64,000 bases of DNA from Synergistaceae bacterium (GCA_030533085.1 JAUNJZ010000001.1:24814-88813), one strand, 5' to 3'; counted from the stretch's first letter, positions 23,896 to 43,050 are shown. Made by a program: numbers and translations. The notes: a model not told the origin generated them from the letters alone.

Positions 23896-25896
23896 ATGAG
23901 CTGTTCTGAGAAGGCGCGCCAGAAGGGGATACTTGGAATAGACGCGGGCGGAACATTTACAGACCTCGTTTTCTGGGGGGAGGAAGATTCGCGCGTCCTG
24001 GCCTCGGCAAAGACTCCGACAATACAGGGAGATCTCGTCGGAACGATAGAAAGGGGGCTTGACCTTATTCTTAAAAAGGCGGCCCCGGAACAGATAAAAA
24101 CTTTTAACCTCGCTACGACGCTGGCGACGAATGCAATCGTTGAAAACAAGCTTCGTCCCTGCGCCCTGATGCTGATCGGTTATGACAATGAGATGGCCTC
24201 CAGATTTATCAAAGGCGGGGCAGTGAATGCCGATTATATTTACCTTGTCGGCGGCGGTCATGACACGAGAGGCGGCGAGCGCGAGCCTCTCGACGAAGCG
24301 GCCTGTCGAAATGCCTGCAAAGAGGCTTTTGCCCATACAGATACAATAGCCATATCCTCTTATTTTTCGGTGAGAAATCCCTCTCATGAACTGCGCGCCC
24401 GCGATATAGCAGAGAGCGAGCGCCCTGGGGTATTCGTGAGCTGCGGTCATGAGCTGGCTGCCGAGCTGGACGCCGTGAAAAGAGCTACGACGGCGGCGCT
24501 GAACGCAGGGCTGATTCCAATAATCATCGACCTGTTAGATTCCGTGGAGGAGGTCTGTCGAAAGCGCGGCATCAACGTGCCGATCATGATTGTGCGCGGC
24601 GACGGTTCTTTGGTCAGTATGGAATGGGCGCGCACTCATCCGGTAGAGACGGTGCTTTCAGGGCCGGCCGCCAGCGCCATCGGCGCCTGCCGCCTTGCCG
24701 GAGCGGAGAATTTTTCCAGAGGTTCCTGCGTCGTGGATATCGGCGGAACAACCACCGATATCATCTATCTCAATGAAAAGGGGCGTCCCCTCCTTGGCAG
24801 GGATGGGACCACCGTCGGCGGTCATAAAACTCTTGTGAAGTCTATAGATACATTTACCTTCGGCCTTGGGGGAGACAGCAGGATATCATTCTCAGAGGAG
24901 CGCGAGCTTGTCATCGGCCCGCGCAGGGTAAGCTCCCTCTGTTCAGCCGCCGCGGAGCTGCCGGCGGTGACGAAATGTCTGAAGGATATTATCGCCTTCG
25001 GCGGCGCGCGTGAGCCGCTTATAGTATTTCGCGGCGAGAGGGGAAGGCCGGAGGGAAGCTTTGAAGAGCGCGTAATCTCTTTGCTTGAAGGCGGCCCCTC
25101 CGCGGCTGACCGGCTGTTGGAGAATGAGCGCTTCTCCAACAGAGGGCTGCTTCAGCTTGAGGATATGGAGCGGCGCGGGCTGCTGCGCTTTGCCGCTTTT
25201 ACGCCTACCGACGCTTTGACCGCTCTCGGCAGGCTTGATAAATGGCCTGCCGAGGCCTCCGCGCTCGGAGCTGAAATACTGGCAGGCTCAAAGGAGGGGG
25301 CAGCCGCCCTCTGCGCGGAGGTGTGCGAAAGAGTGAGCCGGATTGCCGCTAAAAATATATTCAAGAAAAGGTCATCCTCTCAGGGATTTGATTTTGACAG
25401 GGAGGCCGGTGCTGAGGCGCTCATTGATTTTATCCTCGCTCAGCACGGCGGCGCTGCGCATGCTGCGCGGTTGAAGCTGAACAACGAGATAATCGGGGTC
25501 GGCGCTCCGTCGTGGGCTTTTATTCCGAGGGTGGGAGAGCTGCTTTCCGAGACTGCGCTTCATCCGGCGGGGGCGGAGGTGGCCGGCGCGGTCGGAGCGG
25601 CTGTAGGCGCCTTTTTTATGAGCTACGCGATTCTTATCACCCCGCTTGCGGCCGGCGGCTATCGCGCGCACCTGCCGAACGGCGTAAAAGATTTTGAGCT
25701 TCTGGACGAAGCCGTCGATGACGCTGCAGCGGAGGCCGTACCATGGATAAAAGAGCGCGCCGCCAGCTCCGGCGCGAAGAATCCGATTGTCAGCTATCGG
25801 AGGGAAGATACGGAGGCCGAGATCGCCGGAGGGGCCATGCTGTATCTGTCAACGCATATATATTTCGACGTTTCCGAAGGGCTTGAGATAGCGTGA
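23896..25896 (+). CDS. hydantoinase/oxoprolinase A-family (ASKHA-fold ATPase) protein. No HyuB partner is present.
   Basis: The N-terminus GILGIDAGGTFTDLVFW is typical of Hydant_A_N, and VVDIGGTTTDI lies in the second actin-like lobe. GGAGGAG RBS before ATG 23896. Confidence 0.75.
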   Translation: MSCSEKARQKGILGIDAGGTFTDLVFWGEEDSRVLASAKTPTIQGDLVGTIERGLDLILKKAAPEQIKTFNLATTLATNAIVENKLRPCALMLIGYDNEMASRFIKGGAVNADYIYLVGGGHDTRGGEREPLDEAACRNACKEAFAHTDTIAISSYFSVRNPSHELRARDIAESERPGVFVSCGHELAAELDAVKRATTAALNAGLIPIIIDLLDSVEEVCRKRGINVPIMIVRGDGSLVSMEWARTHPVETVLSGPAASAIGACRLAGAENFSRGSCVVDIGGTTTDIIYLNEKGRPLLGRDGTTVGGHKTLVKSIDTFTFGLGGDSRISFSEERELVIGPRRVSSLCSAAAELPAVTKCLKDIIAFGGAREPLIVFRGERGRPEGSFEERVISLLEGGPSAADRLLENERFSNRGLLQLEDMERRGLLRFAAFTPTDALTALGRLDKWPAEASALGAEILAGSKEGAAALCAEVCERVSRIAAKNIFKKRSSSQGFDFDREAGAEALIDFILAQHGGAAHAARLKLNNEIIGVGAPSWAFIPRVGELLSETALHPAGAEVAGAVGAAVGAFFMSYAILITPLAAGGYRAHLPNGVKDFELLDEAVDDAAAEAVPWIKERAASSGAKNPIVSYRREDTEAEIAGGAMLYLSTHIYFDVSEGLEIA

Positions 25897-25911
25897 ATGG
25901 GGGGCTAAGAA

Positions 25912-26625
25912 ATGGCGCTTATGAAATTCGACGGGGTAAGCTTTGACTGGCAGGCACTGCTTGACAATTCACGGAAAGGCGGCCGGCGGAGAAAAATCTC
26001 AGATGATATGGCCGGCGCGGCCAGGCGCGCTTATGATGAAGGGGTAAAGGTTCTTGAGATGCGCGCGGTAATGGAAATATACAAAAAAGAGGCGGATGAC
26101 GACGAGGGGATAACTCTTTCTCTCCCGGATGGGGCTTCGGAGAGGATCTATATCGGCCCGAGAGTCGGCTATCTGTTCCCCGCCCATGAGACGGCCGTGC
26201 TTCTGTGCAGCGTCGGAGAGCCGCTTGTAACGCTCATGCGCGATTACGCCGCCGCTGGAGATCATCTGATGATGTATTATCTCGACGTGCTTGGGGTGAG
26301 GGCGCTCGCGGAGGTTTCTGCCAGAATGCGCGCGCATGTAGAGTCAGCGGCAAAGGAAAAGGGCTGGGGCGTCGGCCCTTCGATGCAGCCCGGCTCTGTG
26401 GAGGGGTGGGGGGTGCAGGGACAGCGCGACCTCTATCGCCTTGCGCACGGCGAAAGGATAGGGCTGGCTCTCAACGAAGCCTCTTTCCTCATTCCGCATA
26501 TTTCAGACTCCGCCATAATCGGAATGGGGCCGCATTATTCCGAGAGCAGGGTCGGCTCTATGTGTCACGAATGTCACAGAAGAGATAAATGCCTCTGGCG
26601 GCGCGAAAACGTCAAAGAAGCTTAA
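25912..26625 (+). CDS. methionine-synthase (MetH) activation-domain-like protein with C-terminal Cys cluster
   Basis: GDHLMMYYLDVLGVRALAEV...GWGVGPSMQPGSVEGWGVQGQRDLYRL...IGLALNEASFLIPHISDSAIIGMG follows the Met_synt_B12 pattern (D..G..., SPG, W..Q..LF, IG..L.ES, P.KS). The tail is CHECHRRDKC. Starts 16 nt after the hydantoinase-like gene. Confidence 0.55.
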   Translation: MALMKFDGVSFDWQALLDNSRKGGRRRKISDDMAGAARRAYDEGVKVLEMRAVMEIYKKEADDDEGITLSLPDGASERIYIGPRVGYLFPAHETAVLLCSVGEPLVTLMRDYAAAGDHLMMYYLDVLGVRALAEVSARMRAHVESAAKEKGWGVGPSMQPGSVEGWGVQGQRDLYRLAHGERIGLALNEASFLIPHISDSAIIGMGPHYSESRVGSMCHECHRRDKCLWRRENVKEA

Positions 26626-26691
26626 GGAAAGGCCGATTAAAACACGATCCGGTTTCGGCTGGGAGCGTGCCTTACGGAAGACGGATGAAAA

Positions 26692-27459
26692 TCAGCCGCG
26701 GCGTCTCTGTCTGACTGCCTCCGCGTCGCCTGGCGTCATTATGTGACAGCCGCCGAGCTGGTAGTAGAGGCATTTTCTGCCTGTGCAGGGCTTGCATGGT
26801 TCCATTTTAATCTCCGTCTCATATTCCGACGAGCCAAGGAGGATAAGAGAACACTGCGATTTTCGCGGGTGGAGCAGCGAGCTTCCGCTTGCCCTCACGC
26901 CAATCAGCCGTTCCGTATCTCCGAGCGAGACGACCTTTTCTATTAGATCCTGCCTCATGCTTCCCGTGCCGGGGTAAAATTCGCCGTTGATATACTTACC
27001 CATCGCGCGCGCGGGGCCGCTTTTCAGCCACTCGGTCATCCTCCGGTGCATGTTGTAGAGCGAGATAGAGCCGGCCACGTCAAGCAGCAGCCCGGTCATC
27101 ATATCATTCAGCGACGAGGTCATTTCTGTACATTTTGCCTCAAGCGCAGGGCCGATTGTCCACACCGCCATCGCCGCCGTTTCAACTGATTTGTTGCTCC
27201 GCGGCAGCTCCGCTCCGAAGTTCTCGGCGGCAACCGAGAAGGGCATGGTCATAACGCGCGCCGTCGGAGAGAGCAGCTTTTCATAGCCTTCGCTCTGCCA
27301 GTATTTCATGAATATCTCAAAGTTTTCCCTGTGCCTTGCTCCAAGTGATTCGTAGTGGCCGCTCAGCGCCGATAGGTCAACGCTCATCGGGGCCTCCTCG
27401 CAGCGTGCCGCCCCATCGCTTGCCCCATATTCAGAGAAGATTATATTGATGCTTTTCAT
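26692..27459 (-). CDS. second MetH activation-domain-like protein with C-terminal Cys cluster
   Basis: LLLDVAGSISLYNMHRRM...YPGTGSMRQDLIEKVVSL...IGVRASGSSLLHPRKSQCSLILLG shows the same pattern. The tail is CKPCTGRKCLYYQLGGC. ATG 27459 has a GGGGGAG RBS and lies 20 nt after the RACo stop. Confidence 0.5.
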   Translation of the reverse strand: MKSINIIFSEYGASDGAARCEEAPMSVDLSALSGHYESLGARHRENFEIFMKYWQSEGYEKLLSPTARVMTMPFSVAAENFGAELPRSNKSVETAAMAVWTIGPALEAKCTEMTSSLNDMMTGLLLDVAGSISLYNMHRRMTEWLKSGPARAMGKYINGEFYPGTGSMRQDLIEKVVSLGDTERLIGVRASGSSLLHPRKSQCSLILLGSSEYETEIKMEPCKPCTGRKCLYYQLGGCHIMTPGDAEAVRQRRRG

Positions 27460-27479
27460 TCTGCCCACTCCCCCTTGGC

Positions 27480-29093
27480 TCAAAGGGCCATCGCCGAAAC
27501 AAATCTCTCTTGAAAATCCGGCAGAGATGACAGCTCGATATATCTCATCTTCTCCGCCGTCCTTTTCGTCCTCTCGTAGAAGTCGGCGGAGGCAAGGGCG
27601 AGAGAGGCGCCAAGTCCTGAAGAATTTTTGACGCTGCGTATCTTATTCCGGTCAATATCCGGTATCAGCCCTATAGCGGCGGCGCTCTCCATATTGATGT
27701 TGTTGCCGAAAGCTCCGGCAAGGCAGACTTCCGACAGTTCGTCCGCGCTTATCCCGGCCTCTTCAAGCATCACTCCGATGCCGACCTTGACCGCTCCGGC
27801 GGCCAGCTGTACTTCGCGGATATCTTTCTGCGTGAGGTAGACGGGATTGTCCCCGTCTGTCAGTAGAAGTTGGGTCATGCCTTTGTCGTTTCGCCCCAGC
27901 CTCTCCCTGAAACGCGGATCCGCGCAACTCTCCGGCTTTATAAATCTGCCGCCGGAGTTTATGAGCCCTTCGCGGAGCGCGAGAGCGACCGCGTCTATCA
28001 GCCCGGAACCGCAGAGGCCAATGGGCTTTGCTCCACCGATAGTGGAATATCTCAATTCGCCCTCTTCAATAAAGAGCCTGTCTATCGCGCCTGTACTGGC
28101 GCGCATCCCGTATTGTATCCTCGCCCCCTCGAAGGCCGGTCCCGCCGCCGTGGCGCAGCAGTAAAGCCCCTTCGCGCCGCCGATCACTATTTCATTGTTG
28201 GTGCCGATATCTACCAGCATTTTTATCCCCTCTGTCTCGTCGATTCCCAGCGCGGCCACTCCCGCTGCGATGTCCGCTCCGACGTAGCCCGCGACGTTGG
28301 GGAGCAGCTTTATAAGGCCATTTTTCGCTATGTTGATGCCTGCCTCCGACGCGCGGAAGGGCGGAAGGCTGAGAAACTGCGGCCTGTAGGGGCTGCGGCC
28401 GATGCTTTCAGGAGAGACGCCGGCGAAGATATGCTCCATCACTGTATTGCCGGCCACGGTTATCTCGCTTATCTTTTCCTTTTCTATACCCTCGCGCTCC
28501 GCAAGCAGCCCTATTTTCTCGTCCATCTCATCCGAGAGCGTTCGCCGTATTTTTTCAAGAGCCTCTGCGGCAGAGGAGGCGTATGCGATACGCGAGATGA
28601 CGTCGTCTCCGAAGACCACCTGCGGGTTGAGAAATGAGATTCGGCCGGCCTCGCGGCGGGAATCAAGGTCAAGGAGGTAGCAGACGACGGTGGTTGTGCC
28701 TATATCTACAGATACGCCGTAACCCTCCGCGCATGGCGCCCAGCCCGCTATTGATTCGGAAAATCCTTCGAGTATGCTGTGTCCGGCTGATTCCACTCCG
28801 TCTATGACTGTTACTTCACCGTCCCGTTCCACAGCGGCGCAGCAGGAGAGGCGGATCCCGTCGTTTCTATCCTGATTGCTGAGAATCTTTCGCTCTGTTT
28901 CATTCAGCGCAGAGAGCGGATCCTTCCCTCTTTCGGTTCGGACTCTGCATTTGCCGCAGACGCCCGCGCCGCCGCAATGGCGTCCGATGGCGACATTGAC
29001 GGAAGCCGCCGCGTCGGAGAGAAGCGTTCCCCTGGGCACGACGGCGGTTACCCCGACGGGGAGGAAAATGACGACGCACTTTTCGTTCTCCAT
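27480..29093 (-). CDS. corrinoid reductive activase (RACo/RamA-like): 2Fe-2S ferredoxin domain + ASKHA ATPase (DUF4445-type)
   Basis: N-terminal plant-type ferredoxin GRHCGGAGVCGKCRV...RLSCC, then actin-like ATPase motifs VSVDIGTTTV and LVDIGTNNEI. Probable start is Met19 (29093). Confidence 0.8.
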   Translation of the reverse strand: MENEKCVVIFLPVGVTAVVPRGTLLSDAAASVNVAIGRHCGGAGVCGKCRVRTERGKDPLSALNETERKILSNQDRNDGIRLSCCAAVERDGEVTVIDGVESAGHSILEGFSESIAGWAPCAEGYGVSVDIGTTTVVCYLLDLDSRREAGRISFLNPQVVFGDDVISRIAYASSAAEALEKIRRTLSDEMDEKIGLLAEREGIEKEKISEITVAGNTVMEHIFAGVSPESIGRSPYRPQFLSLPPFRASEAGINIAKNGLIKLLPNVAGYVGADIAAGVAALGIDETEGIKMLVDIGTNNEIVIGGAKGLYCCATAAGPAFEGARIQYGMRASTGAIDRLFIEEGELRYSTIGGAKPIGLCGSGLIDAVALALREGLINSGGRFIKPESCADPRFRERLGRNDKGMTQLLLTDGDNPVYLTQKDIREVQLAAGAVKVGIGVMLEEAGISADELSEVCLAGAFGNNINMESAAAIGLIPDIDRNKIRSVKNSSGLGASLALASADFYERTKRTAEKMRYIELSSLPDFQERFVSAMAL

Positions 29094-29309: not shown

Positions 29310-30346
29310 GCCGCGTTATTTCCCCCGCTCGTTGTAGAATTCGTCTGCCGCTTCAAAGAAGGCCGTGATGTTCTCCCAGGGCGACATGGCGGGGATGTCG
29401 CAGCCGGAGGAGATGACGAAGTTCGGATACTGGCAGCATTCGCCCATGATTCTCTTTGTTTCGGCCTTCATCGTCTCCGGCGTACCGCTGTAGAAATAGT
29501 CGGAGGGGCTGACATTGCCCATCACCAGCTTGTCTTTCGGCATCAGTTCGAGCATCTCCCTCAGACTTATCGAGTTGCCGAAGTGGAAGGCGGCAGAGCC
29601 GGTGCGCGCTATCGATTCAGTCATCTTAATCGCGCTCCCGCCGCAGTTGTGATAGATCACTATGAAGTTATCGTCCTGCACAGCTTCCACTATCTCGCGC
29701 ACATAGCTCTCGGAGAATTTCACCGCCAGACGCGGAGAGAGAAGCCCGGTAAGCGGCTCCGCCATCACTATGCCGTTCGCGCCGACAGCCTTATAGGCCT
29801 TCGCGTACTCCACAAGGAAATCTGTTGACTTCCTGAGCACGGCCTTCATCATATCGGGCTTTTCTATGCAGTTTACAAGAGCCTCCGCTACGCCGACGAG
29901 ACGTCCGGCGAGCGAGAAGGGGCCTATTACTCCCGCGAATACAGGCCTGTCGGTGATCAGCTCGCAGGCTTTGCCGAGAGCTTCGATATATCTGCCTGTG
30001 CGCGCGGTTCCTACCGGGGGCACAGCCAGAGCCTCTGCCTCCTCGATACTGTTTACGACGGAGCCTACCACAGTGGGCACGTCCTCATCGGAGATATGTA
30101 CCGTAGAGCCGAAAGCCTCAGCTTCAACGGAGAGATCCATCATGCTTACCGATGCCAGGGAATCTATCTTGTCCGCGACCATCTTCATTCCCTTTGCCTG
30201 CAAGCCGCTGTCGCTTATCAGCTCGCGCACGGTTATCCCCATCAGAGTGACGCAGGGGAATGAGAGCACGGGCATCGCCTTTTTGCGCGGAGCGGCCTTG
30301 ATCTCTTCGAGCCAATTGTTCATGTTCATTGGTAACACCTTTCCTT
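29310..30346. repeat. copy A of a 1,037-bp direct repeat (partner at 40313..41349)
   Basis: Co-linear with copy B at a constant offset of 11,003 bp. I saw only about five substitutions. Both-strand ORF translations are identical over hundreds of residues. The repeat spans the stop flank, the CDS and the RBS only. Confidence 0.9.
29316..30329 (-). CDS. uroporphyrinogen-decarboxylase-family methylcobamide methyltransferase (MtaA/MtbA-like MT2), copy 1
   Basis: URO-D-like fold. The candidate Zn site is IVIYHNCGG (H-x-C-G) plus ISSGCDIP. Likely start is MNMNNW (30329), with a GGAAAGG RBS shared by copy 2. Confidence 0.75.
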   Translation of the reverse strand: MNMNNWLEEIKAAPRKKAMPVLSFPCVTLMGITVRELISDSGLQAKGMKMVADKIDSLASVSMMDLSVEAEAFGSTVHISDEDVPTVVGSVVNSIEEAEALAVPPVGTARTGRYIEALGKACELITDRPVFAGVIGPFSLAGRLVGVAEALVNCIEKPDMMKAVLRKSTDFLVEYAKAYKAVGANGIVMAEPLTGLLSPRLAVKFSESYVREIVEAVQDDNFIVIYHNCGGSAIKMTESIARTGSAAFHFGNSISLREMLELMPKDKLVMGNVSPSDYFYSGTPETMKAETKRIMGECCQYPNFVISSGCDIPAMSPWENITAFFEAADEFYNERGK

Positions 30347-30482
30347 TGTTTAAAATATCTTTCATTTGCCCCGTATCACTTTATTAACTGAGAAAAAGCC
30401 TTAAAGGATATAGGACTGATCCTTAATCTAGCTCTTATCTAATTAGACTAGCACTGTCAAATCGATACAGTTTCAGCCATTT

Positions 30483-32879
30483 CTATCCACAGCTGGCGCA
30501 GCTGCCTTCGCGCTGCACCGTGCGCGCGATTATGTCGTCCTGCACTTCCTTGCCAAGCTCTACGAAGAAGGCCGTGTAGCCCGCCACGCGCACGAGCAGG
30601 TTGCGGTATTCTTCCGGGTGCGCCTGCGCCTCAAGAAGCTTTTTCTGATCCACTACGTTGAATTGCACATGGTAGACGCCGAGCGAGCAGAGGGTGCGCA
30701 GCATCGCCATTATCTGGCGTATGCCGTTTTCGCTGTTTGCCATTTGCGGGTCGAGCTTCATGTTGAGCAATGTACCCTGTACGAAGCGGTCGTGCGGAAT
30801 GTTGGCGACTGATTTCAGCACTGCCGTGGGGCCGTTGACGTCTGTCCCGCCGTTTGGGCTGACTCCGTCGGCAAGGGGCTTGCCCGCGCGCCTTCCCGAG
30901 GGCAGAGCGCCGACTTCTACGCCGAAGGGGGTGTTGCCGGAGACCGGCAGGATGCCGGGGGTCATTACTCCGAATTTGCTGCGGTAGCTTTCTATTTCGT
31001 CGGCGATGTAGGCGAAGAGTTCCGCCGCGAGGCTGTCCGCGTATTGGTCGTCGTTGCCGTATTTGGGGGCTTCTTTGCAGGCTTTGAGGATTTCAGGCGC
31101 GTCCTCGAAGTCGGAGGCGAGGGCCGCGAGCAGCTGTTTCATGCTGACGCTTTTTGTGTCGTAGACGAGATGTTTGACTGCGGCTACGCTGTTGATGAGG
31201 TCTGATACGCCGATGCAGATGATCCCGTTGCCGGTGTTGTATTTAGCGCCGCCCCAGGCGTAGTCTTTCGCGTTTTCGATGCATTCCTCAAAGCTGACGG
31301 AGAGGGCGGGGACGGGGCGTCCCATGCATATTTCGTCTATTATGTGGCTGGCTTTGACGACTACTTTGATGACGTAGCGGAGCTGAGCTTTGACTGCGTT
31401 CAGGAAGTCGCCGAATGTCGCGAAGCTGGCGGGGTCGCCTGTCTGCGCTCCGGCAAGCGCGCCGGTTTTGCGGCATTTGCCGTTCAGCAGCACGAATTCC
31501 ATTACGCTGCCGAGGTTTATGTCTGCAAGGGCGGAGTAGGCGCGCAGTTTGCCGGCAAGGTTGGTCTCGACGCAGCCTCCGGGGTTCCAGTCAAGCGCTT
31601 CGCGCAGAGGGATGCCTTTGTTCATCAGCATACGTATGCCCACTTCGTCGTTATGGAAGGCGGGGAAGCCCGTGCCCATTACCATAAGCTCTACTATTTT
31701 GCGCAGGAAGGAGTTTGGATTTTTCGCCATGTTGTAGCGCACCGAGAGCGATGGCTGGTAGAGCTGTGTGTCCATTGTGGCCTGTATTATCATGTAGGAG
31801 AGGTCGTTTACCGCGTCGCGTCCCATTTTGTCCACGCCGCCGGCGCAGAGGTTCTGGAACATCGGGTAGCCGGAGGCATATTCTGCGGATTTGGCGTCCT
31901 GAAAGAGGCACTGTTCGGAGAATTTTACCCAGAGGCAGTCAAAGAGCTCCTGCGCCTCTTCGGGGGTGATGCGTCCGGCTTCCAGGTCGGCCTTGTAGTA
32001 GGGATAGAGATACTGGTCCATGCGTCCGGGGTTGTAGGCGGCGGCGTTTTGTTCCATGAAGATGCTTATCTGGTAGAAGTAGAAGGACTGCATGGCTTCG
32101 CGGAAGCTGCGCGCGGGATATGCCGGAACGCGGCGGCAGACTTGCGCTATCTCAAGCAGCTCCGCTTTGCGGCGCGGCTCTTGCTCCTTTGCGGCAAGAC
32201 GCTCCGCCTCGATGGCGTAACGTTCGGCCAGAGTCTCCAGCCCTTCGCAGACTGTCAGAAGCGCGTCGAGATAGACTTCCTTTTCGTAATCTCCGGGAAC
32301 TGTGGCGTCAAGCTTTGCCTTACGCTCAAGAATTCTCTTGCGCAGCCCCTCGACGCCGTTATTTATGAACCACTCGTAGCCGGCCGTGACCTCGCCCCAG
32401 CCGCGCACTGCCTTCTTGTCGATATAAAGCGCGCCGTTGTCGCGCAGAGCGGCCACATCCGCAGGTATACGCGCGAGCCATTCTTCGTAATTTGAGCGCC
32501 CCTTCCAGTAGGGACGGATCATCTCTTCAAAATCCTTTTTGTCCTCCGGCAGAAGCCTGAACTTGTCATATTCGCGGGTATTGATAGTATCAAGCTCGCG
32601 GTCGAGCACCGACCAGCAGACATCCGCGGAGAGTATACCGCCGCGTATCTTGCTGCCGGAATTTCCTACGATCAGCTCGTCGTCCCATATCTTAACGCTC
32701 TTTTCACGGCACTGCTTCAGAAAAGCCTTGGCCTTGCGCGTGACAAGCGCCTCCCCCTGAGTCTCAAGAAAGCTCTGCGTCAGCAGCTTCGCGTCCTCAA
32801 GGTCTATCTCCGGATATGTCTCAAAGAGCTTCGATTTCAACCTTTCCACTCGTTCCAGATATTTTGGCTGGTTTTCCAT
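30483..32879 (-). CDS. glycyl radical enzyme, PFL2/dehydratase-lyase clade, substrate unknown
   Basis: 798 aa from ATG 32879 (AAGGAGGGG RBS). The glycyl radical motif LLVRVAGYTAFFVELGKEVQDDIIART is near the C-terminus. The Cys loop is WNPGGCVETN. The N-terminal region is typical of CutC/HypD/GDH-type enzymes. Confidence 0.9.
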   Translation of the reverse strand: MENQPKYLERVERLKSKLFETYPEIDLEDAKLLTQSFLETQGEALVTRKAKAFLKQCREKSVKIWDDELIVGNSGSKIRGGILSADVCWSVLDRELDTINTREYDKFRLLPEDKKDFEEMIRPYWKGRSNYEEWLARIPADVAALRDNGALYIDKKAVRGWGEVTAGYEWFINNGVEGLRKRILERKAKLDATVPGDYEKEVYLDALLTVCEGLETLAERYAIEAERLAAKEQEPRRKAELLEIAQVCRRVPAYPARSFREAMQSFYFYQISIFMEQNAAAYNPGRMDQYLYPYYKADLEAGRITPEEAQELFDCLWVKFSEQCLFQDAKSAEYASGYPMFQNLCAGGVDKMGRDAVNDLSYMIIQATMDTQLYQPSLSVRYNMAKNPNSFLRKIVELMVMGTGFPAFHNDEVGIRMLMNKGIPLREALDWNPGGCVETNLAGKLRAYSALADINLGSVMEFVLLNGKCRKTGALAGAQTGDPASFATFGDFLNAVKAQLRYVIKVVVKASHIIDEICMGRPVPALSVSFEECIENAKDYAWGGAKYNTGNGIICIGVSDLINSVAAVKHLVYDTKSVSMKQLLAALASDFEDAPEILKACKEAPKYGNDDQYADSLAAELFAYIADEIESYRSKFGVMTPGILPVSGNTPFGVEVGALPSGRRAGKPLADGVSPNGGTDVNGPTAVLKSVANIPHDRFVQGTLLNMKLDPQMANSENGIRQIMAMLRTLCSLGVYHVQFNVVDQKKLLEAQAHPEEYRNLLVRVAGYTAFFVELGKEVQDDIIARTVQREGSCASCG

Positions 32880-32971
32880 TGTATGCCCCTCCTTTGTAAA
32901 CTGGTTTTGTACCAGAACACGGCGTTTTGCCGTAGAAATCATTTAATCGCAATATCACATAAGATATACAA

Positions 32972-34276
32972 TTACATATTACCTATGACATAGTTTGGAA
33001 GCCATAGCGCCAGCTCTGGAAAGTACGTAACGGCCATTAGCGTAGGGATCCAGGCAAAGAATAAAAATTTCAGTGTGGTCGGGAGCATCTCGGCTACTTT
33101 TACTTTCATCACTCCAGCGCCAAAATAAAGACATGGCGCAGTTGGCGGAGAAAGCAGGCCTATACCGATATTCACGCCGATAATCGCCGCAAAATGTATG
33201 GGGTCAACGCCAAATTCCTGCAAGATCGGGATAAATATCGGCGAGCATAGCAAAATAGCGCTGGTATCGTCCATAATCATACCTATTATCAATAATATTA
33301 TATTCGTTCCCAACAGTATGATATATTTGTTATCTGACAGGTTTTTGAGTGCGCTGGTAATCATTCCAGGCAGATCTTCCATTATGTATATGCGGCTCAA
33401 CATCATGATACAAAAAATCATCACCATGATTACGCCTGTACTTGCCGCTGTTTCTATTAACGTTTCATAGAGGTTTTTAAAAGTAAGCTTTTTATATACG
33501 AAAAAACCTACAGGTATCGTATAAATAACAGCGACAGCCGCAGCTTCGGTAGGTGTGAAAAAGCCGCTGTATATACCACCAAGGACAATGAACGGCATGG
33601 TCAGCGCTGGAACAGCAGACACTGTTCTGTTCTTCGCCATTTCCAGGAACTCAGAATAGCTCATCTTTTCCCTGCTTTTAATATTCTTGTCGTTTCTAAG
33701 AATAAAGTAGCTGGTAACAGAAAGCAGAAACACCAGCAAAAGGCCAGGTCCTACTGTGGCAAGGAAGCATGCCAACAACGACTGCCGTCCCGCCCATGAA
33801 TACAACACCATGTGCGCGCTGGGCGGTATCAATAGCCCAAGCGGAGCCGCACAAGTGACAAGAGCTGCGGCAAAGCCTTTGTCGTATCCGGCCTCCTCAA
33901 ATCTCGGTTTCATGATCGAACCGATACAAGACAAGGTTGCCAGACTGCTGCCGGCAATAGAACCAAACGCGGCGCTGGCAACCACCGCAACTACTGCAAG
34001 GCCGCATTTTATTCTACCCACAAAGATATCAACAAACTCGACAAGAGTTTTTCCAATACCGCTTTGGTTCATTAATGAACCTACCGCGATAAAGAGCGGT
34101 ACGCAAAGCAAGACGAGAGAATTTACAACTCCATAGCCATATGTCAGCAGAAAACTTGTCTTGTATCCCAAAGTAACAACCAGAAACAACGCCGCGGCCA
34201 AAAATGCGTACTGTATATACATCCCAAGCAACAGGCCGGCGATTATCATCAATATAGCAATAAATATGAATGTCAT
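32972..34276 (-). CDS. TRAP transporter large permease (DctM family)
   Basis: 434-aa polytopic membrane protein, directly downstream of the DctQ-like and DctP-like genes. Confidence 0.85.
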   Translation of the reverse strand: MTFIFIAILMIIAGLLLGMYIQYAFLAAALFLVVTLGYKTSFLLTYGYGVVNSLVLLCVPLFIAVGSLMNQSGIGKTLVEFVDIFVGRIKCGLAVVAVVASAAFGSIAGSSLATLSCIGSIMKPRFEEAGYDKGFAAALVTCAAPLGLLIPPSAHMVLYSWAGRQSLLACFLATVGPGLLLVFLLSVTSYFILRNDKNIKSREKMSYSEFLEMAKNRTVSAVPALTMPFIVLGGIYSGFFTPTEAAAVAVIYTIPVGFFVYKKLTFKNLYETLIETAASTGVIMVMIFCIMMLSRIYIMEDLPGMITSALKNLSDNKYIILLGTNIILLIIGMIMDDTSAILLCSPIFIPILQEFGVDPIHFAAIIGVNIGIGLLSPPTAPCLYFGAGVMKVKVAEMLPTTLKFLFFAWIPTLMAVTYFPELALWLPNYVIGNM

Positions 34277-34282
34277 CTGCCG

Positions 34283-34813
34283 TTATCCTTTCCTTGTCAG
34301 TGCAACCAGATGGTTGTAATCTCTAATCGTATAAACGGTTAGATAGAGGGCCGTTATTACGAAAGACAACAAAATCGCAGTCTGAGGAATGAAATATGGA
34401 ATATTCCACAATGATGTTACCGTCCATGTTTCTATTGACCTTGCCACCATATTATATGCCAGTACGACAAAAATAAAGTTTATGGAAGTTTGCAGTATCC
34501 CTGCTGCAAGCTTTGCCACAGCCAACAGCTTTTCCCCCATCATCGTCGCCAGGATATCCGCCTTAATATGTTCTTCCTTACTCATTGCATATGCCGCACC
34601 AATGAAATACATCCAGAAAGAATCAACAAGCACTATCTCGTCATATCCGTATAGATCCGCGTGAAGTACATATCTCGCCAGCACAACCGCTCCCAGTATG
34701 ACCAGCATCAAAACTGTAGTGAGGAACATGATGAATCTCTGTACCTTAAGTAAAGACTTCCAAATTTCAGAGTCCATGATGCTGTTTATAAATTGTATCT
34801 CTCTCACTTTCAA
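34283..34813 (-). CDS. TRAP transporter small permease (DctQ family)
   Basis: 176 aa with four hydrophobic segments. Lies between the DctP and DctM homologs. Start uncertain. Confidence 0.75.
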   Translation of the reverse strand: MKVREIQFINSIMDSEIWKSLLKVQRFIMFLTTVLMLVILGAVVLARYVLHADLYGYDEIVLVDSFWMYFIGAAYAMSKEEHIKADILATMMGEKLLAVAKLAAGILQTSINFIFVVLAYNMVARSIETWTVTSLWNIPYFIPQTAILLSFVITALYLTVYTIRDYNHLVALTRKG

Positions 34814-34893
34814 TTCACTCCCTTCGCTTTTTTACATAAGGGCATGCCATACAAGCATGCCCTTATGTATCAACGTAATTGTGCTTACAGTTT

Positions 34894-35922
34894 TTACTTT
34901 CCCGGTTTCGTAGCCGCGACCTGTTTGTCAAGAGCTTCAAGGAATTCTTTTCCAAACACGTCGTTGTATTTCGGCCATATCTTTTTACGAAGCTCACTAT
35001 GTAGTTTATAATAATCGTCGTCGGTATATTCGTTAATCTCTATGCCATAATCCTTAAGCAGCCTTGTAAACTCCACTTCTTTTTCTTCCATCAGGGTAAG
35101 AGTTTTCTGCGCCCAGCTTTTGAAAACATCGGAAACAATCTGCTGTTCCTCTGGAGAGAACGAGGCCCAAAGCTCCTCATTACAGATTATCCACGTAGGT
35201 GGGCAGTGAAATCTATTGTAGTCGATATATTTTATGATATCCTTGCCGACAAGCCATGACGTTTCAAGCGTTTGTCCGGTAGCGCCGTCCACCTGACCTG
35301 TCTGCATCGCGTTCCAAACCTCTGACAGATCCATTGTCAGCGTCTGATATCCCATCGCAACAGTGCTGTCTCTGTAGAGTGGCATTCCTGGAACACGGAG
35401 GCTCAGCTTTTTATTTTCAAAACCACTGAAGGATTCAGGGCGTTTTCCTTTCGCGAAAACAAAGCAAGCGTACGGTTCCGGCCAACCGCCGATACTTTTG
35501 ACCTTTATATCTTTTAAGACTTCGTCCATCTTTTTTGCAATCAGCGAGTCTTCTGCAAAACAGATCTCCGCATACTGTTTATACCCCATAGGAGCGTATG
35601 CCGGAAGATTGAGCAAGTCCAAACGAGGGTCATATTTCTTTGTGGGCCATGTCGCGCCGAACTCAATAGTACCCTGTCTGACTTCTTCAATCACATCTTC
35701 GTAACTTCCAAGCTGGCCGCCAGGAAAAATTTTTATCGAGATTTTGCCGTCTGTCTCATTTTTTATCTGCTCTGCGGCAGAAACCAATCCCTGTGTAATA
35801 TAACTTTCAGCAACGTACGGAGCATACATCTTCAACGTTCTAGCTTCAGCAACCCCGCTAGCAACAAACAGACCAAATAACGCACAAATAGATATTATTT
35901 TTACAAAACTTTGCTTTTTCAT
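34894..35922 (-). CDS. TRAP transporter substrate-binding protein (DctP family)
   Basis: 342 aa. Signal peptide MKKQSFVKIISICALFGLFVASGVAEA, with a DctP-like periplasmic-binding-protein body. Confidence 0.8.
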   Translation of the reverse strand: MKKQSFVKIISICALFGLFVASGVAEARTLKMYAPYVAESYITQGLVSAAEQIKNETDGKISIKIFPGGQLGSYEDVIEEVRQGTIEFGATWPTKKYDPRLDLLNLPAYAPMGYKQYAEICFAEDSLIAKKMDEVLKDIKVKSIGGWPEPYACFVFAKGKRPESFSGFENKKLSLRVPGMPLYRDSTVAMGYQTLTMDLSEVWNAMQTGQVDGATGQTLETSWLVGKDIIKYIDYNRFHCPPTWIICNEELWASFSPEEQQIVSDVFKSWAQKTLTLMEEKEVEFTRLLKDYGIEINEYTDDDYYKLHSELRKKIWPKYNDVFGKEFLEALDKQVAATKPGK

Positions 35923-36072: not shown

Positions 36073-36714
36073 TTACGCAACCCTTAAAAGTCTTTTCGCA
36101 GCTTCAACTGCTGAGCTCGCGTCCTCCGAATAAACCGCGCCTATTTTTTCGGCATACATGGGCGAAGTAGGCGCTCCTCCAATCATTACCTTTGTTGAAT
36201 CACTGAGTCCTTCCTCTTTGAGTACGTCGATTACCTCCTTCATTTTTGCCATCGTTGTGGTAAGCATTGCCGACATCCCCAATATGTCAGGTGAATACTC
36301 TTTCACCTTTTCAGCAATCTGGGCAGCCTGAACATCAATGCCTATGTTAATAACCTCAAAACCCGCGCCTTCCAGCATCATCCCCACAAGCTTTATGCCG
36401 ATGTCATGCAGATCGCCCTCGACAGTTACCGTTAGGATTCTGCCTTTTCTCTCAACTCCTTCCTCTACCAGTAGATTGCGGATGACGTCGATGCCGCCCT
36501 GCAACGCTTTCGCAGACACTAGAACCTCCGGGACAAACATTTCCCCATCCTTGAAAAGCTCTCCAACTTCATTCATCCCAACGATCAAGCCGTCATTAAG
36601 AATTTTCCCCGCGGATACGCCTCCCTCCACAGCTTCCTGAACATATGCAGTTGTCTGTTTCACATTGCCCTCTAGAACCGCTTCAGCAATATTCCTAAGT
36701 ATTTCTTCACTCAT
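36073..36714 (-). CDS. corrinoid (cobalamin-binding) protein 1, MtbC/MttC/MtgC-like
   Basis: B12-binding DxHxxG motif in TVEGDLHDIGIKLVGMMLEGAGFEVINIG, plus SAMLTTTM and MIGGAP. Confidence 0.9.
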   Translation of the reverse strand: MSEEILRNIAEAVLEGNVKQTTAYVQEAVEGGVSAGKILNDGLIVGMNEVGELFKDGEMFVPEVLVSAKALQGGIDVIRNLLVEEGVERKGRILTVTVEGDLHDIGIKLVGMMLEGAGFEVINIGIDVQAAQIAEKVKEYSPDILGMSAMLTTTMAKMKEVIDVLKEEGLSDSTKVMIGGAPTSPMYAEKIGAVYSEDASSAVEAAKRLLRVA

Positions 36715-40312: not shown

Positions 40313-41349
40313 GCCGCGTTATTTCCCCTGCTCGTTGTAGAATTCGTCTGCCGCTTCAAAGAAGGCCATGATGTTCTCCCAGGGCGACATGGCGGGTATG
40401 TCGCAGCCGGAGGAGATGACGAAGTTCGGATACTGGCAGCATTCGCCCATGATTCTCTTTGTTTCGGCCTTCATCGTCTCCGGCGTACCGCTGTAGAAAT
40501 AGTCGGAGGGGCTGACATTGCCCATCACCAGCTTGTCTTTCGGCATCAGTTCGAGCATCTCCCTCAGACTTATCGAGTTGCCGAAGTGGAAGGCGGCAGA
40601 GCCGGTGCGCGCTATCGATTCAGTCATCTTAATCGCGCTCCCGCCGCAGTTGTGATAGATCACTATGAAGTTATCGTCCTGCACAGCTTCCACTATCTCG
40701 CGCACATAGCTCTCGGAGAATTTCACCGCCAGACGCGGAGAGAGAAGCCCGGTAAGCGGCTCCGCCATCACTATGCCGTTCGCGCCGACAGCCTTATAGG
40801 CCTTCGCGTACTCCACAAGGAAATCTGTTGACTTCCTGAGCACGGCCTTCATCATATCGGGCTTTTCTATGCAGTTTACAAGAGCCTCCGCTACGCCGAC
40901 GAGACGTCCGGCGAGCGAGAAGGGGCCTATTACTCCCGCGAATACAGGCCTGTCGGTGATCAGCTCGCAGGCTTTGCCGAGAGCTTCGATATATCTGCCT
41001 GTGCGCGCGGTTCCTACCGGGGGCACAGCCAGAGCCTCTGCCTCCTCGATACTGTTTACGACGGAGCCTACCACAGTGGGCACGTCCTCATCGGAGATAT
41101 GTACCGTAGAGCCGAAAGCCTCAGCTTCAACGGAGAGATCCATCATGCTTACCGATGCCAGGGAATCTATCTTGTCCGCGACCATCTTCATTCCCTTTGC
41201 CTGCAAGCCGCTGTCGCTTATCAGCTCGCGCACGGTTATCCCCATCAGAGTGACGCAGGGGAATGAGAGCACGGGCATCGCCTTTTTACGCGGAGCGGCC
41301 TTGATCTCTTCGAGCCAGTTGTTCATGTTCATTGGTAACACCTTTCCTT
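40313..41349. repeat. copy B of the 1,037-bp direct repeat (partner at 29310..30346)
   Basis: See copy A. The two proteins differ at two residues near the C-terminus (T/M and R/Q). Confidence 0.9.
40319..41332 (-). CDS. uroporphyrinogen-decarboxylase-family methylcobamide methyltransferase (MtaA/MtbA-like MT2), copy 2
   Basis: Identical to copy 1 except ENIMAFF...NEQGK versus ENITAFF...NERGK. Confidence 0.75.
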   Translation of the reverse strand: MNMNNWLEEIKAAPRKKAMPVLSFPCVTLMGITVRELISDSGLQAKGMKMVADKIDSLASVSMMDLSVEAEAFGSTVHISDEDVPTVVGSVVNSIEEAEALAVPPVGTARTGRYIEALGKACELITDRPVFAGVIGPFSLAGRLVGVAEALVNCIEKPDMMKAVLRKSTDFLVEYAKAYKAVGANGIVMAEPLTGLLSPRLAVKFSESYVREIVEAVQDDNFIVIYHNCGGSAIKMTESIARTGSAAFHFGNSISLREMLELMPKDKLVMGNVSPSDYFYSGTPETMKAETKRIMGECCQYPNFVISSGCDIPAMSPWENIMAFFEAADEFYNEQGK

Positions 41350-43004: not shown

Positions 43005-43050
43005 CCCCCAAACACCCCTCCTAAATAAATTTTGTTAAAATACTGCGAAC

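What the first reader, a model, noticed from the sequence alone, without database searches (positions are those of the whole stretch)
23896..29093. Two convergent 'ASKHA-type ATPase + MetH-activation-domain-like protein' pairs: a possible dual corrinoid reactivation module
On the plus strand, a hydantoinase-A-family ATPase (23896-25896) is followed 16 nt later by a 237-aa protein matching the pattern of the SAM-binding reactivation domain of MetH. On the minus strand, a RACo-type activase (2Fe-2S + ASKHA ATPase) is followed 20 nt later by a second such protein. The two pairs converge at 26625/26692.

Both activation-like proteins carry C-terminal Cys clusters (CHECHRRDKC and CKPCTGRKC...GGC) that MetH lacks. 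The hydantoinase homolog has no HyuB partner.

ATP-dependent reduction (RACo) and SAM-dependent reductive methylation (MetH-type) are normally alternative ways to rescue Co(II) corrinoids. A paired arrangement, with a hydantoinase-fold ATPase as a possible second activase, is not a described system as far as I know.
Basis: partly seen in the sequence, partly recalled or inferred. Interest (0 to 1): 0.7.

Follow-up and report, generated by a model that had tools for sequence, protein, structure and literature searches.

The report
Corrinoid reactivation gene set with new partners
Four genes beside vitamin-B12-type (corrinoid) methyl-transfer operons in a Synergistaceae genome encode a known ATP-driven B12 reactivating enzyme, a hydantoinase-like ATPase and two cysteine-tailed relatives of the methionine synthase reactivation domain. 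The same combinations recur as neighbours or fusions in many genomes, which points to an undescribed multi-part way of keeping B12 proteins active.

Summary
**Observation:** confirmed. The four genes sit at the stated coordinates.
- RACo and the hydantoinase-A-like ATPase are clear Pfam matches.
- The two small proteins hit no Pfam or NCBIfam model. Their AlphaFold models match the MetH reactivation domain first (TM0269/1J6R, E=5e-11 and 6e-5). A profile of their wider family hits 1J6R at E=2e-14.

**The small proteins:** they are paralogues in a large uncharacterised family (5,516 clusters).
- An invariant C-terminal CX2CX4-5C motif defines the family.
- The MetH AdoMet fingerprint RxxxGY is lost (R→S/E, Y→S/T).
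- Family members sit next to RACo, next to the hydantoinase-like ATPase, or are fused to RACo.

**The hydantoinase-like ATPase:** no HyuB partner was seen in the window or in the loci with Pfam-annotated genes.
- It sits in MttB/corrinoid operons in Synergistota and Firmicutes.
- In 24 of 80 metagenomic loci it is fused to DUF1638, a domain genetically tied to B12 reactivation.

**Interpretation:** partly supported. This is a corrinoid-maintenance module. SAM-dependent methylation is unsupported, and the "pairs" are usually a Hyd–RACo–Act triad in relatives.

**Best guess:** the small proteins dock on the corrinoid protein and bind a metal, working with ASKHA-fold ATPases (the actin/Hsp70/sugar-kinase fold).

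**Verdict:** new variant of a known kind; biochemistry untested.

The parts
23896..25896 (+). Hydantoinase-A-like ASKHA ATPase ('Hyd-like', 666 aa) with no HyuB partner. ASKHA-type DxGGT motifs are invariant in the family. The C-terminal half (about residues 344-666) is specific to this family.
   Evidence: - Pfam: Hydant_A_N and a partial Hydantoinase_A match.
- Alignment A6 has the invariant motifs D16-G18-G19-T22-D23 and D281-G283-G284-T285-T286-D288.
- The A6 profile matches solved HyuA-type subunits only over residues 8-343.
- Relatives sit in MttB/corrinoid operons or are fused to DUF1638.
25912..26625 (+). A1: 237-aa stand-alone homologue of the MetH reactivation domain, with a C-terminal C218-x2-C221-x5-C227 motif. 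The RxxxGY motif is replaced by S157-MQP-G161-S162.
   Evidence: - No Pfam hit.
- AlphaFold2 mean pLDDT 89.
- Foldseek top hit 1j6r_A, E=5.2e-11, TM-score (target) 0.80, followed by MetH reactivation domains.
- A1-family profile against 1j6r: E=0.0037. Wider-family profile: E=2e-14.
- Motif mapping.
26692..27459 (-). A2: 255-aa paralogue of A1 (263 aa if the upstream TTG at 27483 is used). C-terminal motif C222-x2-C225-x4-C230-x7-C238-H239, plus a nearly invariant C203.
   Evidence: - No Pfam hit.
- AlphaFold2 mean pLDDT 80.
- Foldseek top hit 1j6r_A, E=6.1e-5, followed by MetH reactivation domains.
- hhalign of A1 against A2: E=7e-4 over 135 colinear columns.
- In the merged alignment the three Cys residues line up.
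- A2 lies directly downstream of RACo here and in L005, L103 and L104.
27480..29093 (-). RACo-family reductive activase of corrinoid proteins: [2Fe-2S] ferredoxin domain, middle domain and ASKHA ATPase domain.
   Evidence: - Pfam: Fer2, Raco_middle and RACo_C_ter.
- NCBIfam AcsV scores 392 bits, below the 800-bit cutoff. It is therefore a family member but not an AcsV equivalog.
- Cys spacing CX5CX2CX34C.
29316..30365 (-). MtaA/MtbA-like URO-D-family methylcorrinoid methyltransferase (MT2), upstream of RACo in the same direction.
   Evidence: - Pfam URO-D E=6.4e-49; NCBIfam MtaA/CmuA-family hits below their cutoffs.
- A terminator-like hairpin at 29213-29247(-) lies between this gene and RACo.
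30483..32942 (-). Glycyl radical enzyme (PFL2-3 subfamily) inside the same minus-strand gene string.
   Evidence: Pfam PFL-like and Gly_radical. NCBIfam TIGR01774 scores 682.6 against a cutoff of 678.2. CutC, HypD and HpsG models score below their cutoffs.
32972..35922 (-). TRAP transporter (DctM, DctQ, DctP).
   Evidence: Pfam DctM and DctP. The DctQ-sized ORF at 34283-34813 is assigned by size and position only; it was not scanned against any library.
36073..36714 (-). Corrinoid protein (B12-binding_2 + B12-binding), the likely client of the activation genes.
   Evidence: Pfam.
36747..38270 (-). MttB-superfamily methyltransferase (MT1).
   Evidence: Pfam MTTB E=1.6e-79.
40319..45374 (-). Second methyltransferase set: URO-D MT2 (40319-41341), BCCT transporter (41478-43004), MttB (43117-44637) and corrinoid protein (44673-45374). 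No activase of its own lies within this cluster.
   Evidence: - Pfam.
- The MT2 gene is 99.5% identical in DNA to 29310-30346.

Best explanation
The four genes are a maintenance module for the corrinoid proteins of the MttB-type methyltransferase systems encoded next to them.

**Proposed roles**
- **RACo:** the canonical ATP-dependent reductive activase, transferring an electron from its [2Fe-2S] cluster to Co(II). This is established for the family and inferred here.
- **A1 and A2:** paralogous members of a large, uncharacterised family of stand-alone MetH-reactivation-domain homologues.
  - They have lost the R and Y of the AdoMet fingerprint.
  - They have gained an invariant C-terminal CX2CX4-5C motif.
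  - I infer that they dock on the B12 face of the corrinoid protein, as the MetH reactivation domain does, and hold it in an activation-competent, uncapped state.
  - I also infer that the Cys tail binds a metal centre, most likely an Fe-S cluster. That cluster would relay the electron or sense redox state.
- **Hyd-like protein:** a second ASKHA ATPase dedicated to corrinoid proteins, not a hydantoinase. It would supply ATP-driven conformational work together with an Act-like or DUF1638 partner.

**Shown versus inferred**
- Shown: domain identities, homology, motif loss and gain, and conserved adjacency and fusions.
- Inferred: docking, metal binding, and the role of ATP.
For: **Fold and homology of A1 and A2**
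- Foldseek top hits are TM0269 and MetH reactivation domains.
- The wider-family profile hits 1j6r at E=2e-14.
- 21 of 72 family representatives hit PF02965.

**Family size and motif**
- 5,516 representatives at E<=1e-3.
- Invariant columns are P160, G161, P195, C218, C221 and C227.

**Functional linkage to ASKHA ATPases**
- Act::Fer2-RACo fusion of 828 aa, lying between a corrinoid protein and a URO-D gene (L021).
- A2 directly after RACo in the window, L005, L103 and L104.
- A1 directly after RACo in Hyd-RACo-A1 triads (L001-L005, L007, L022) and in L011, a short contig that shows only RACo-A1. A1 directly after Hyd in the window, L006 and L025.
- An Act-like gene overlapping the start of a Hyd-like gene, with no RACo nearby, in L019.

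**Hyd-like protein and corrinoid systems**
- Every relative at 44% identity or more whose locus extends beyond the gene itself lies in an MttB/corrinoid cluster or next to RACo or an Act-like gene. The one uninformative case is L026, a 4.6-kb contig holding only the gene.
- Of 80 metagenomic loci, 24 are DUF1638::Hyd fusions, 20 have a corrinoid protein, 13 have MttB and 8 have RACo. In all, 46 of 80 have at least one such link.
- DUF1638 is required, with a RamA-like protein, for B12-dependent methionine synthesis in Phaeobacter inhibens (PMC5764234).

**Other support**
- ATPase motifs are invariant in the Hyd-like family.
- The Suipraeoptans locus also carries an MttB::MutL fusion, another ASKHA protein joined to a corrinoid methyltransferase.
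Against: - There is no biochemical or genetic evidence for any Act-like or Hyd-like family member.
- Metal binding is inferred only from three invariant Cys residues. A1-type proteins lack a conserved fourth ligand. The AlphaFold tail is of low confidence (pLDDT 57-77 in A1, below 50 in part of A2).
- Some Act-like genes stand alone, far from any corrinoid gene (L020, L102).
- 34 of 80 distant Hyd-like loci show no corrinoid link within 10 kb.
- RACo works without such partners on CoFeSP and O-demethylase corrinoid proteins in vitro (own knowledge of Hennig et al. and the Diekert laboratory). The partners may therefore be dispensable or serve another step.
- AdoMet binding is not formally excluded. 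The PG and PxxSxS elements around the MetH AdoMet site are retained.
Confidence: 0.5

Rival explanations
1. A1 and A2 are functional MetH-type reactivation domains that bind AdoMet and reductively methylate Co(I). This SAM-dependent rescue route would run in parallel with ATP-dependent RACo.
For: - MetH reactivation-domain fold and homology.
- The PG and PxxSxS elements are retained.
- A few family members (P0332, P0334) keep RFSPGY together with the Cys tail, so the family descends from AdoMet binders.
- TM0269 shows that a stand-alone domain can reactivate a B12 enzyme (own knowledge; PDB 1J6R title).
Against: - The R and Y of RxxxGY are replaced in both window proteins and in most of the family, whose consensus is sLsPGS.
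- PF02965 does not score either protein at all.
- Consistent pairing or fusion with ATPases suggests an ATP-driven rather than a SAM-driven mechanism.
Confidence: 0.12
2. The Hyd-like ATPase is a cofactor-exchange or loading chaperone, comparable to the ASKHA reactivases DdrA, EutA and MutL of adenosylcobalamin enzymes. It would use ATP to open the corrinoid protein and swap or insert the corrinoid. The Act-like (or DUF1638) partner would hold the uncapped state. Reduction itself would be left to RACo.
For: - Weak but recurrent MutL (PF13941) similarity in the Hyd-like family, with E from 5e-4 to 2e-9.
- MttB::MutL fusion in the Suipraeoptans locus.
- The Hyd-like protein has no Fe-S domain.
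- Hyd and RACo are usually adjacent, which suggests complementary rather than redundant roles.
Against: - No direct evidence.
- Loci such as L014, L019 and L027 have Hyd-like but no RACo within 10 kb, so Hyd-like may be able to stand in for RACo.
- The Cys motif in the partner suggests redox chemistry.
Confidence: 0.25
3. The Hyd-like protein is a catabolic enzyme acting on a small molecule of the pathway, for example an ATP-dependent lactam or hydantoin ring opening or a carboxylation. Its position next to A1 would be coincidental operon packing.
For: - Pfam and NCBIfam similarity to HyuA, caprolactamase alpha and acetophenone carboxylase subunits.
- Proline- and ornithine-related genes (OCD, Pro_racemase, OrtA/B) occur in several related loci.
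Against: - No HyuB-type partner in the window or in any locus whose genes carry Pfam annotation.
- Similarity to solved HyuA subunits covers only the ATPase half.
- The association holds across operons with different MT1 types and transporters.
- Fusion to DUF1638 in 24 of 80 loci.
- Overlapping or adjacent Act-like genes.
Confidence: 0.08

Closest known systems
RACo / RamA / O-demethylase activating enzyme family (COG3894, DUF4445): ATP-dependent reductive activases of corrinoid proteins
   Same: The gene at 27480-29093 has the full RACo architecture (Fer2, middle domain, ASKHA domain). It sits at the end of a corrinoid methyltransferase operon, as RamQ, OdmC and MecH do.
   Different: Here, and in many relatives, it is followed by or fused to a Cys-tailed MetH-activation-like protein, and is usually preceded by a Hyd-like ATPase. 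These partners are not part of the described RACo systems.
MetH reactivation (AdoMet-binding) domain, PF02965, including the stand-alone TM0269 of Thermotoga maritima (PDB 1J6R)
   Same: Same fold (Foldseek E=5e-11 and 6e-5). Homology is detectable with a family profile (E=2e-14). The PG and PxxSxS elements are conserved. TM0269 is also a stand-alone protein of about 210-240 aa.
   Different: - PF02965 gives no score for A1 or A2.
- The R and Y of RxxxGY are lost.
- The C-terminal CX2CX4-5C extension is absent from E. coli MetH and from TM0269.
- The genomic partner is an ASKHA ATPase in a methyltransferase operon, not a methionine synthase.
RamA-like (DUF4445) + DUF1638 pair required for split B12-dependent methionine synthase in Phaeobacter inhibens (Price et al. 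2018, PMC5764234), and MecG/MecH of the anaerobic dichloromethane (mec) cassette
   Same: The logic is the same: an ASKHA activase plus a small accessory protein of unknown role, both needed for or co-encoded with a corrinoid methyltransferase. Relatives of the Hyd-like protein are fused to DUF1638.
   Different: The accessory protein here is a MetH-activation-domain homologue with a Cys motif, not DUF1638. A second, hydantoinase-type ATPase is involved.
Hydantoinase A / 5-oxoprolinase A / acetone- and acetophenone-carboxylase HyuA-type subunits
   Same: The N-terminal half (residues 8-343) matches the ASKHA ATPase core of these enzymes (E=8e-41 to PDB 6YRA).
   Different: There is no HyuB partner. 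The C-terminal half is unrelated. The genomic context is corrinoid methyl transfer rather than lactam or ketone metabolism.
ASKHA-type B12 reactivases and chaperones (DdrA/GdrA, EutA, MutL/GlmL)
   Same: These are ASKHA ATPases dedicated to restoring B12 enzymes. The Hyd-like family shows weak MutL (PF13941) similarity, and one related locus has an MttB::MutL fusion.
   Different: Those enzymes act on adenosylcobalamin enzymes by cofactor exchange. No sequence-level membership is shown here, since MutL scores fall below the Pfam cutoff.

Membership tests
MetH reactivation domain (Pfam PF02965 Met_synt_B12) | Match to the PF02965 model at or above its gathering score (25 bits) | tested here: not met
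   No PF02965 hit for A1 or A2 even at E<=10. Of 72 wider-family representatives, 21 do hit it, with a best E of 2.8e-10.
MetH reactivation domain (Pfam PF02965 Met_synt_B12) | C-shaped alpha/beta reactivation-domain fold | tested here: met
   - AlphaFold2 models have mean pLDDT 89 and 80.
- Foldseek top hits are 1j6r_A (E=5.2e-11, TM-score (target) 0.80; and E=6.1e-5, TM-score 0.64).
- The next hits are the Thermus, human and E. coli MetH reactivation domains.
MetH reactivation domain (Pfam PF02965 Met_synt_B12) | RxxxGY AdoMet-binding fingerprint (E. coli R1134-Y1139) | tested here: not met
   - hhalign and hmmsearch alignments place A1 S157-M-Q-P-G161-S162 and A2 E-F-Y-P-G-T opposite MetH RPAPGY and TM0269 RISPGY.
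- RxxxGY is confirmed at position 1134 in E. coli MetH.
MetH reactivation domain (Pfam PF02965 Met_synt_B12) | AdoMet binding and reductive methylation of cob(I)alamin | not testable with these tools
   Requires binding and activity assays.
RACo/RamA reductive activase (COG3894/DUF4445) | Raco_middle plus RACo_C_ter ASKHA domains | tested here: met
   Pfam E=4.5e-56 and 1.6e-75, both far above their cutoffs.
RACo/RamA reductive activase (COG3894/DUF4445) | N-terminal [2Fe-2S] ferredoxin domain with four Cys ligands | tested here: met
   Pfam Fer2 32.9 bits against a cutoff of 21. C40, C46, C49 and C84 are present.
RACo/RamA reductive activase (COG3894/DUF4445) | Equivalog of AcsV (CoFeSP activase) or of methanogen RamA | tested here: not met
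   NCBIfam AcsV 392.6 bits against a cutoff of 800. TIGR04270 scores 96 bits against 500. The protein is a family member but belongs to neither named subfamily.
Hydantoinase/oxoprolinase (HyuA-type) | Hydant_A_N and full-length Hydantoinase_A domains | tested here: inconclusive
   Hydant_A_N matches in full. Hydantoinase_A matches only profile positions 1-148 of 291. The family profile aligns to solved HyuA subunits only over residues 8-343.
Hydantoinase/oxoprolinase (HyuA-type) | Co-encoded HyuB (Hydantoinase_B) catalytic partner | tested here: not met
   None in the window neighbourhood. None among the called genes of L001-L015 and L019.
Cys-tailed stand-alone MetH-activation-like family (defined here) | About 220-260 aa, with invariant PG, P..S.S and C-terminal CX2CX4-5C | tested here: met
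   Alignments A1-A4. Both window proteins score 308 and 169 bits against the A4 HMM, although both are themselves rows of A4. Independent support is the A1-A2 homology and the shared invariant columns.

The most novel reading that the evidence does not exclude
The hydantoinase-like ATPase, together with a Cys-tailed MetH-activation-like protein (or, in other lineages, a fused DUF1638 domain), forms a second, RACo-independent class of ATP-dependent corrinoid reductive activase.
- The accessory protein would dock on the B12 face and carry an Fe-S cluster, bound by three Cys residues, that delivers the electron.
- The ASKHA ATPase would provide the conformational drive.
- On this reading, 'ASKHA ATPase + docking subunit' would be a general, modular design: {RACo or Hyd-like} combined with {Act-like or DUF1638}.
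- That design would also explain the unexplained requirement for DUF1638 in split methionine synthases.
Probability: 0.3. Interest if true: 0.8.

Novelty: new variant of a known kind. Interest (0 to 1): 0.62.

Why it matters
**The open problem.** Corrinoid methyltransferases drive methylotrophic methanogenesis and acetogenesis. They also drive gut quaternary-amine demethylation, which competes with trimethylamine formation, as well as dichloromethane degradation and methionine synthesis. All of them depend on rescue of oxidised Co(II). Only two rescue chemistries are described: the MetH reactivation domain with AdoMet, and RACo/RamA with ATP.

**What this locus and its relatives add.**
- A large unannotated family derived from the MetH domain (more than 5,000 sequence clusters) has been recruited as a partner of ATP-dependent activases.
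- A widespread protein annotated as 'hydantoinase' is in fact tied to corrinoid proteins.
- That protein is physically fused to DUF1638, whose role in B12 reactivation has been open since 2018.

**If confirmed, this would:**
- correct the annotation of thousands of genes;
- supply missing components for in vitro reconstitution of MttB-family systems, which currently rely on heterologous RamA or Ti(III) citrate;
- give a testable model for DUF1638.

Tried and rejected
- **Direct family searches.** Pfam and NCBIfam scans of A1 and A2, including at E<=10, gave nothing. Single-sequence phmmer against PDB sequences gave nothing. The A2-only profile against PDB gave only chance hits such as VP35 and FERM.
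- **GATA similarity.** The A1 profile's weak similarity to GATA zinc fingers (C..C...LWRR; E=0.47 to 2.3) was rejected as a chance match to a short motif.
- **Metagenome scans for the wide family.** The single metagenome scan was therefore spent on the Hyd-like family.
- **Genome-collection scan with A1.** It found only 8 loci. Seven are labelled Synergistota or Synergistaceae and one is a MAG labelled Bacteroidetes. The narrow A1 clade therefore appears lineage-restricted.
- **Context look-ups that added little.** P0058, a paralogue in the same MAG, was not on record. P0246 had contigs that were too short. P0377 and P0334 stand alone.
- **Hyd-like loci without a corrinoid link.** Their neighbours are heterogeneous. 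Six lie next to pyruvoyl arginine decarboxylase and no common theme emerged.
- **DUF1638 conservation.** It has two conserved Cys residues (YGxCG, DCI) but no obvious cluster motif. The idea that 'the accessory domain always brings an Fe-S cluster' is therefore not supported for DUF1638.
- **Literature.** Searches for MttB, RACo, activation domain, hydantoinase and PF02965 found no description of these pairings. One figure legend lists 'HydA, hydantoinase' in glycine betaine clusters.
- **RACo hits to the A4 model.** These come from the fusion protein included in A4 and were ignored.

Full report
**1. What is in the window**

The region carries four real genes at the stated coordinates.

- **Hyd-like, 23896-25896(+):** 666 aa. 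It matches Pfam Hydant_A_N in full, and Hydantoinase_A only over the first half of that model.
- **A1, 25912-26625(+):** 237 aa. It starts 15 nt after the Hyd-like stop.
- **RACo, 27480-29093(-):** a complete RACo-type activase with Fer2, Raco_middle and RACo_C_ter domains. Its Cys spacing is CX5CX2CX34C.
- **A2, 26692-27459(-):** 255 aa. It starts 20 nt after the RACo stop.

NCBI holds identical proteins from a Synergistaceae MAG. The two small ones are named 'hypothetical protein' there.

The surroundings are corrinoid methyl-transfer operons.

- Upstream of RACo on the minus strand lie a URO-D/MtaA-like MT2, a glycyl radical enzyme, a TRAP transporter, a corrinoid protein, an MttB-family MT1 and an RpiR regulator.
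- A second set occupies 40319-45374: URO-D, BCCT, MttB and a corrinoid protein.

**2. The two small proteins**

Direct searches find nothing for A1 or A2.

- Neither hits any Pfam or NCBIfam model, even at E<=10.
- Neither hits any PDB sequence on its own.

Homologue alignments and structure models do place them.

- The alignments (A1, 34 sequences; A2, 27 sequences) gave confident AlphaFold2 models, with mean pLDDT 89 and 80.
- For both models the top Foldseek hit in the PDB is TM0269 (1J6R), the stand-alone methionine synthase activation domain of Thermotoga. E=5.2e-11 with TM-score 0.80 for A1, and E=6.1e-5 with TM-score 0.64 for A2.
- The next hits are the reactivation domains of Thermus, human and E. 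coli MetH.

A1 and A2 are paralogues.

- hhalign gives E=7e-4 over 135 colinear columns.
- In a joint alignment their three C-terminal Cys residues coincide: A1 C218/C221/C227 against A2 C222/C225/C230.

The family is large and connects to MetH by sequence.

- A profile of both families, searched against 1.84 billion cluster representatives, found 5,516 proteins at E<=1e-3 and 2,305 at E<=1e-10. Nearly all of the 150 best hits listed are 220-260 aa long.
- In 72 of these the invariant columns are P160, G161, P195, C218, C221 and C227.
- 21 of the 72 hit Pfam PF02965.
- The 72-sequence profile hits 1J6R at E=2e-14 and Thermus MetH at E=1.8e-4.

Homology to the MetH reactivation domain is therefore established through this family bridge, although Pfam misses the window proteins.

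**3. How they differ from MetH**

- E. coli MetH carries RxxxGY at 1134-1139 and no CxxC motif. I know RxxxGY as the AdoMet-binding fingerprint from the MetH structural literature (Dixon et al. 1996; not re-read here).
- TM0269 has RISPGY and ends without a Cys tail.
- The alignments place A1 S157-MQP-G161-S162 and A2 E-FYP-G-T at this position. The family consensus is sLsPGS. The R and the Y are lost, and only the PG is kept.
- A few family members (P0332, P0334) still have RFSPGY together with the Cys tail. The family therefore looks like a derivative of true AdoMet-binding domains.

The invariant CX2CX4-5C tail is the defining novelty. A2-type proteins add an invariant C238-H239. A1-type proteins have no conserved fourth ligand.

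**4. Genomic linkage of the Act-like family**

| Arrangement | Where seen |
|---|---|
| URO-D, MttB, corrinoid, BCCT, OCD, Hyd-like, RACo, A1 on one strand | Cloacibacillus evryensis |
| Hyd-RACo-A1 triad | L004, L005, L007, L022 |
| RACo-A1 (short contig) | L011 |
| Hyd-A1 directly | window, L006, L025 |
| Act-like gene overlapping the start of a Hyd-like gene, no RACo or MttB nearby | L019 |
| A2-type directly after RACo | window, L005 |
| A2-type directly after RACo, in corrinoid/MtmB-like/URO-D operons | L103, L104 |
| Act-like gene directly before a RACo that lacks Fer2 | Suipraeoptans (Firmicutes) locus |
| Single 828-aa Act::Fer2-RACo fusion, flanked by a corrinoid protein and URO-D | L021 |
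| Act-like gene alone | L020, L102 |

The adjacency and fusion pattern shows a functional link between the Act-like family and ASKHA ATPases of two kinds. It also shows that the window's 'two pairs' are one rearranged version of a set that is usually a triad.

**5. The hydantoinase-like ATPase**

- The family is conserved over all 666 residues, including invariant DxGGT motifs of the ASKHA type.
- Its profile resembles solved HyuA-type subunits only over residues 8-343.
- No HyuB gene accompanies it in the window or in the loci whose genes carry Pfam annotation.
- Relatives at 44% identity or more lie in MttB/corrinoid clusters or next to RACo or an Act-like gene. These include a Firmicute locus and L014, where the gene sits between the corrinoid protein and MttB with no RACo. 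The one uninformative case is L026, a 4.6-kb contig holding only the gene.

In 80 metagenomic loci with relatives at 31-64% identity:

| Feature within 10 kb | Loci |
|---|---|
| DUF1638::Hyd-like fusion | 24 |
| Separate DUF1638 gene | 3 |
| Corrinoid protein | 20 |
| MttB | 13 |
| RACo | 8 |
| Act-like | 2 |
| At least one of these or URO-D | 46 of 80 |

The other 34 loci have heterogeneous neighbours.

DUF1638 is the domain that Price et al. found to be required, together with a RamA-like DUF4445 protein, for the split B12-dependent methionine synthase of Phaeobacter inhibens. They offered no functional proposal for it (PMC5764234). It is also induced with RamA during glycine betaine demethylation in Ruegeria (PMC12478193). 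The mec-cassette authors state that MecG (a protein with a domain of unknown function) and MecH (RACo) share domain organisation with those two proteins.

The only mention I found of the hydantoinase in methyltransferase clusters is a figure legend that lists 'HydA' in glycine betaine clusters (PMC9768040).

**6. Mechanism**

*Established for the families.* RACo couples ATP hydrolysis to uphill electron transfer from its [2Fe-2S] cluster to Co(II). The MetH reactivation domain caps the upper face of cobalamin in the reactivation conformation.

*Inferred here.*

- A1 and A2 use the inherited fold to dock on the corrinoid protein and hold it uncapped.
- Their Cys tail binds a metal centre, probably Fe-S.
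- They work with ASKHA ATPases.
- The Hyd-like protein is such an ATPase, dedicated to corrinoid proteins.

*Not decided by the data.* It is open whether the Hyd-like protein drives reduction, as a RACo-independent activase, or drives cofactor exchange or loading, as DdrA, EutA and MutL do.

- The weak MutL similarity and the MttB::MutL fusion keep the second possibility alive.
- The usual Hyd-RACo adjacency suggests complementary rather than redundant roles.
- A purely catabolic role for the Hyd-like protein is unlikely, given the missing HyuB and the DUF1638 fusions.

**7. Verdict**

- **Observation:** confirmed.
- **Interpretation:** partly supported. This is a corrinoid reactivation module, but it is not shown to be SAM-dependent, and it is not two fixed alternative pairs.
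- **Novelty:** RACo itself is ordinary. The Cys-tailed MetH-activation-like family as an activase partner, and the Hyd-like ATPase as a corrinoid-system component fused elsewhere to DUF1638, are not described in the literature I could search.
- **Rating:** a new variant of a known kind. Interest is moderate to high, limited by the complete absence of biochemical evidence.

Noticed in passing
window 29310-30346 and 40313-41349: The two URO-D/MtaA-like MT2 genes are 99.5% identical in DNA over 1,037 bp. Their flanking genes are not duplicated. This looks like a recent duplication or gene conversion of the MT2 gene alone between the two methyltransferase clusters.
   Followed up: partly
window 30483-32942 (-): A glycyl radical enzyme (PFL2-3 subfamily; below the CutC, HypD and HpsG equivalog cutoffs) is embedded in the MttB/corrinoid/TRAP operon. 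No adjacent radical-SAM activating enzyme was found. Related Hyd-like loci (L012, L014) pair MttB genes with a GRE, a GRE activase, a proline-racemase-like gene and OrtA/B. That combination suggests a route for betaine-type substrates that combines demethylation with a radical enzyme.
   Followed up: partly
L012:1677-4550 (Suipraeoptans sp. MAG): A 957-aa fusion of an MttB-family methyltransferase with a full-length MutL/GlmL-type ASKHA protein (PF13941, E=4e-134). It is followed by a 584-aa protein with a C-terminal B12-binding domain. ASKHA proteins fused directly to a corrinoid methyltransferase appear not to have been described.
   Followed up: partly
L028, L058, L063, L073 and 20 further metagenome loci: DUF1638 is fused to the N-terminus of Hyd-like ATPases, giving ORFs of about 930-1,025 aa measured stop-to-stop. 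This links a domain of unknown function, genetically tied to B12 reactivation, to a 'hydantoinase' family.
   Followed up: partly
L048, L051, L062, L072, L074, L076, L078, L081, L082, L085, L092, L098: Tandem pairs of distant Hyd-like paralogues. Several have a corrinoid protein a few kb upstream. Neighbour scans of the loci lacking any corrinoid link found pyruvoyl arginine decarboxylase genes in six cases. Their role and their relation to the window protein are unclear.
   Followed up: no
window 10095-12444 (+): Glycine/sarcosine/betaine reductase component B genes: a GrdE-like gene and then GRDB. The GRDB ORF ends after 348 aa, which may reflect a selenocysteine UGA. This fits an organism that reduces the products of betaine demethylation.
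   Followed up: no
window 59613-61616 (-) and 62279-63424 (-): A TonB-dependent receptor and a MeaB-type GTPase, the G-protein chaperone of methylmalonyl-CoA mutase. A weak B12-binding-domain hit runs off the window end at 63431-64000. These are further B12-related genes in the same window.
   Followed up: no
window 29213-29247 (-): A strong terminator-like hairpin (16 bp, 11 GC pairs) lies between the URO-D MT2 gene and RACo. The RACo-A2 pair may therefore be transcribed separately from, or at a lower level than, the catalytic genes.
   Followed up: no
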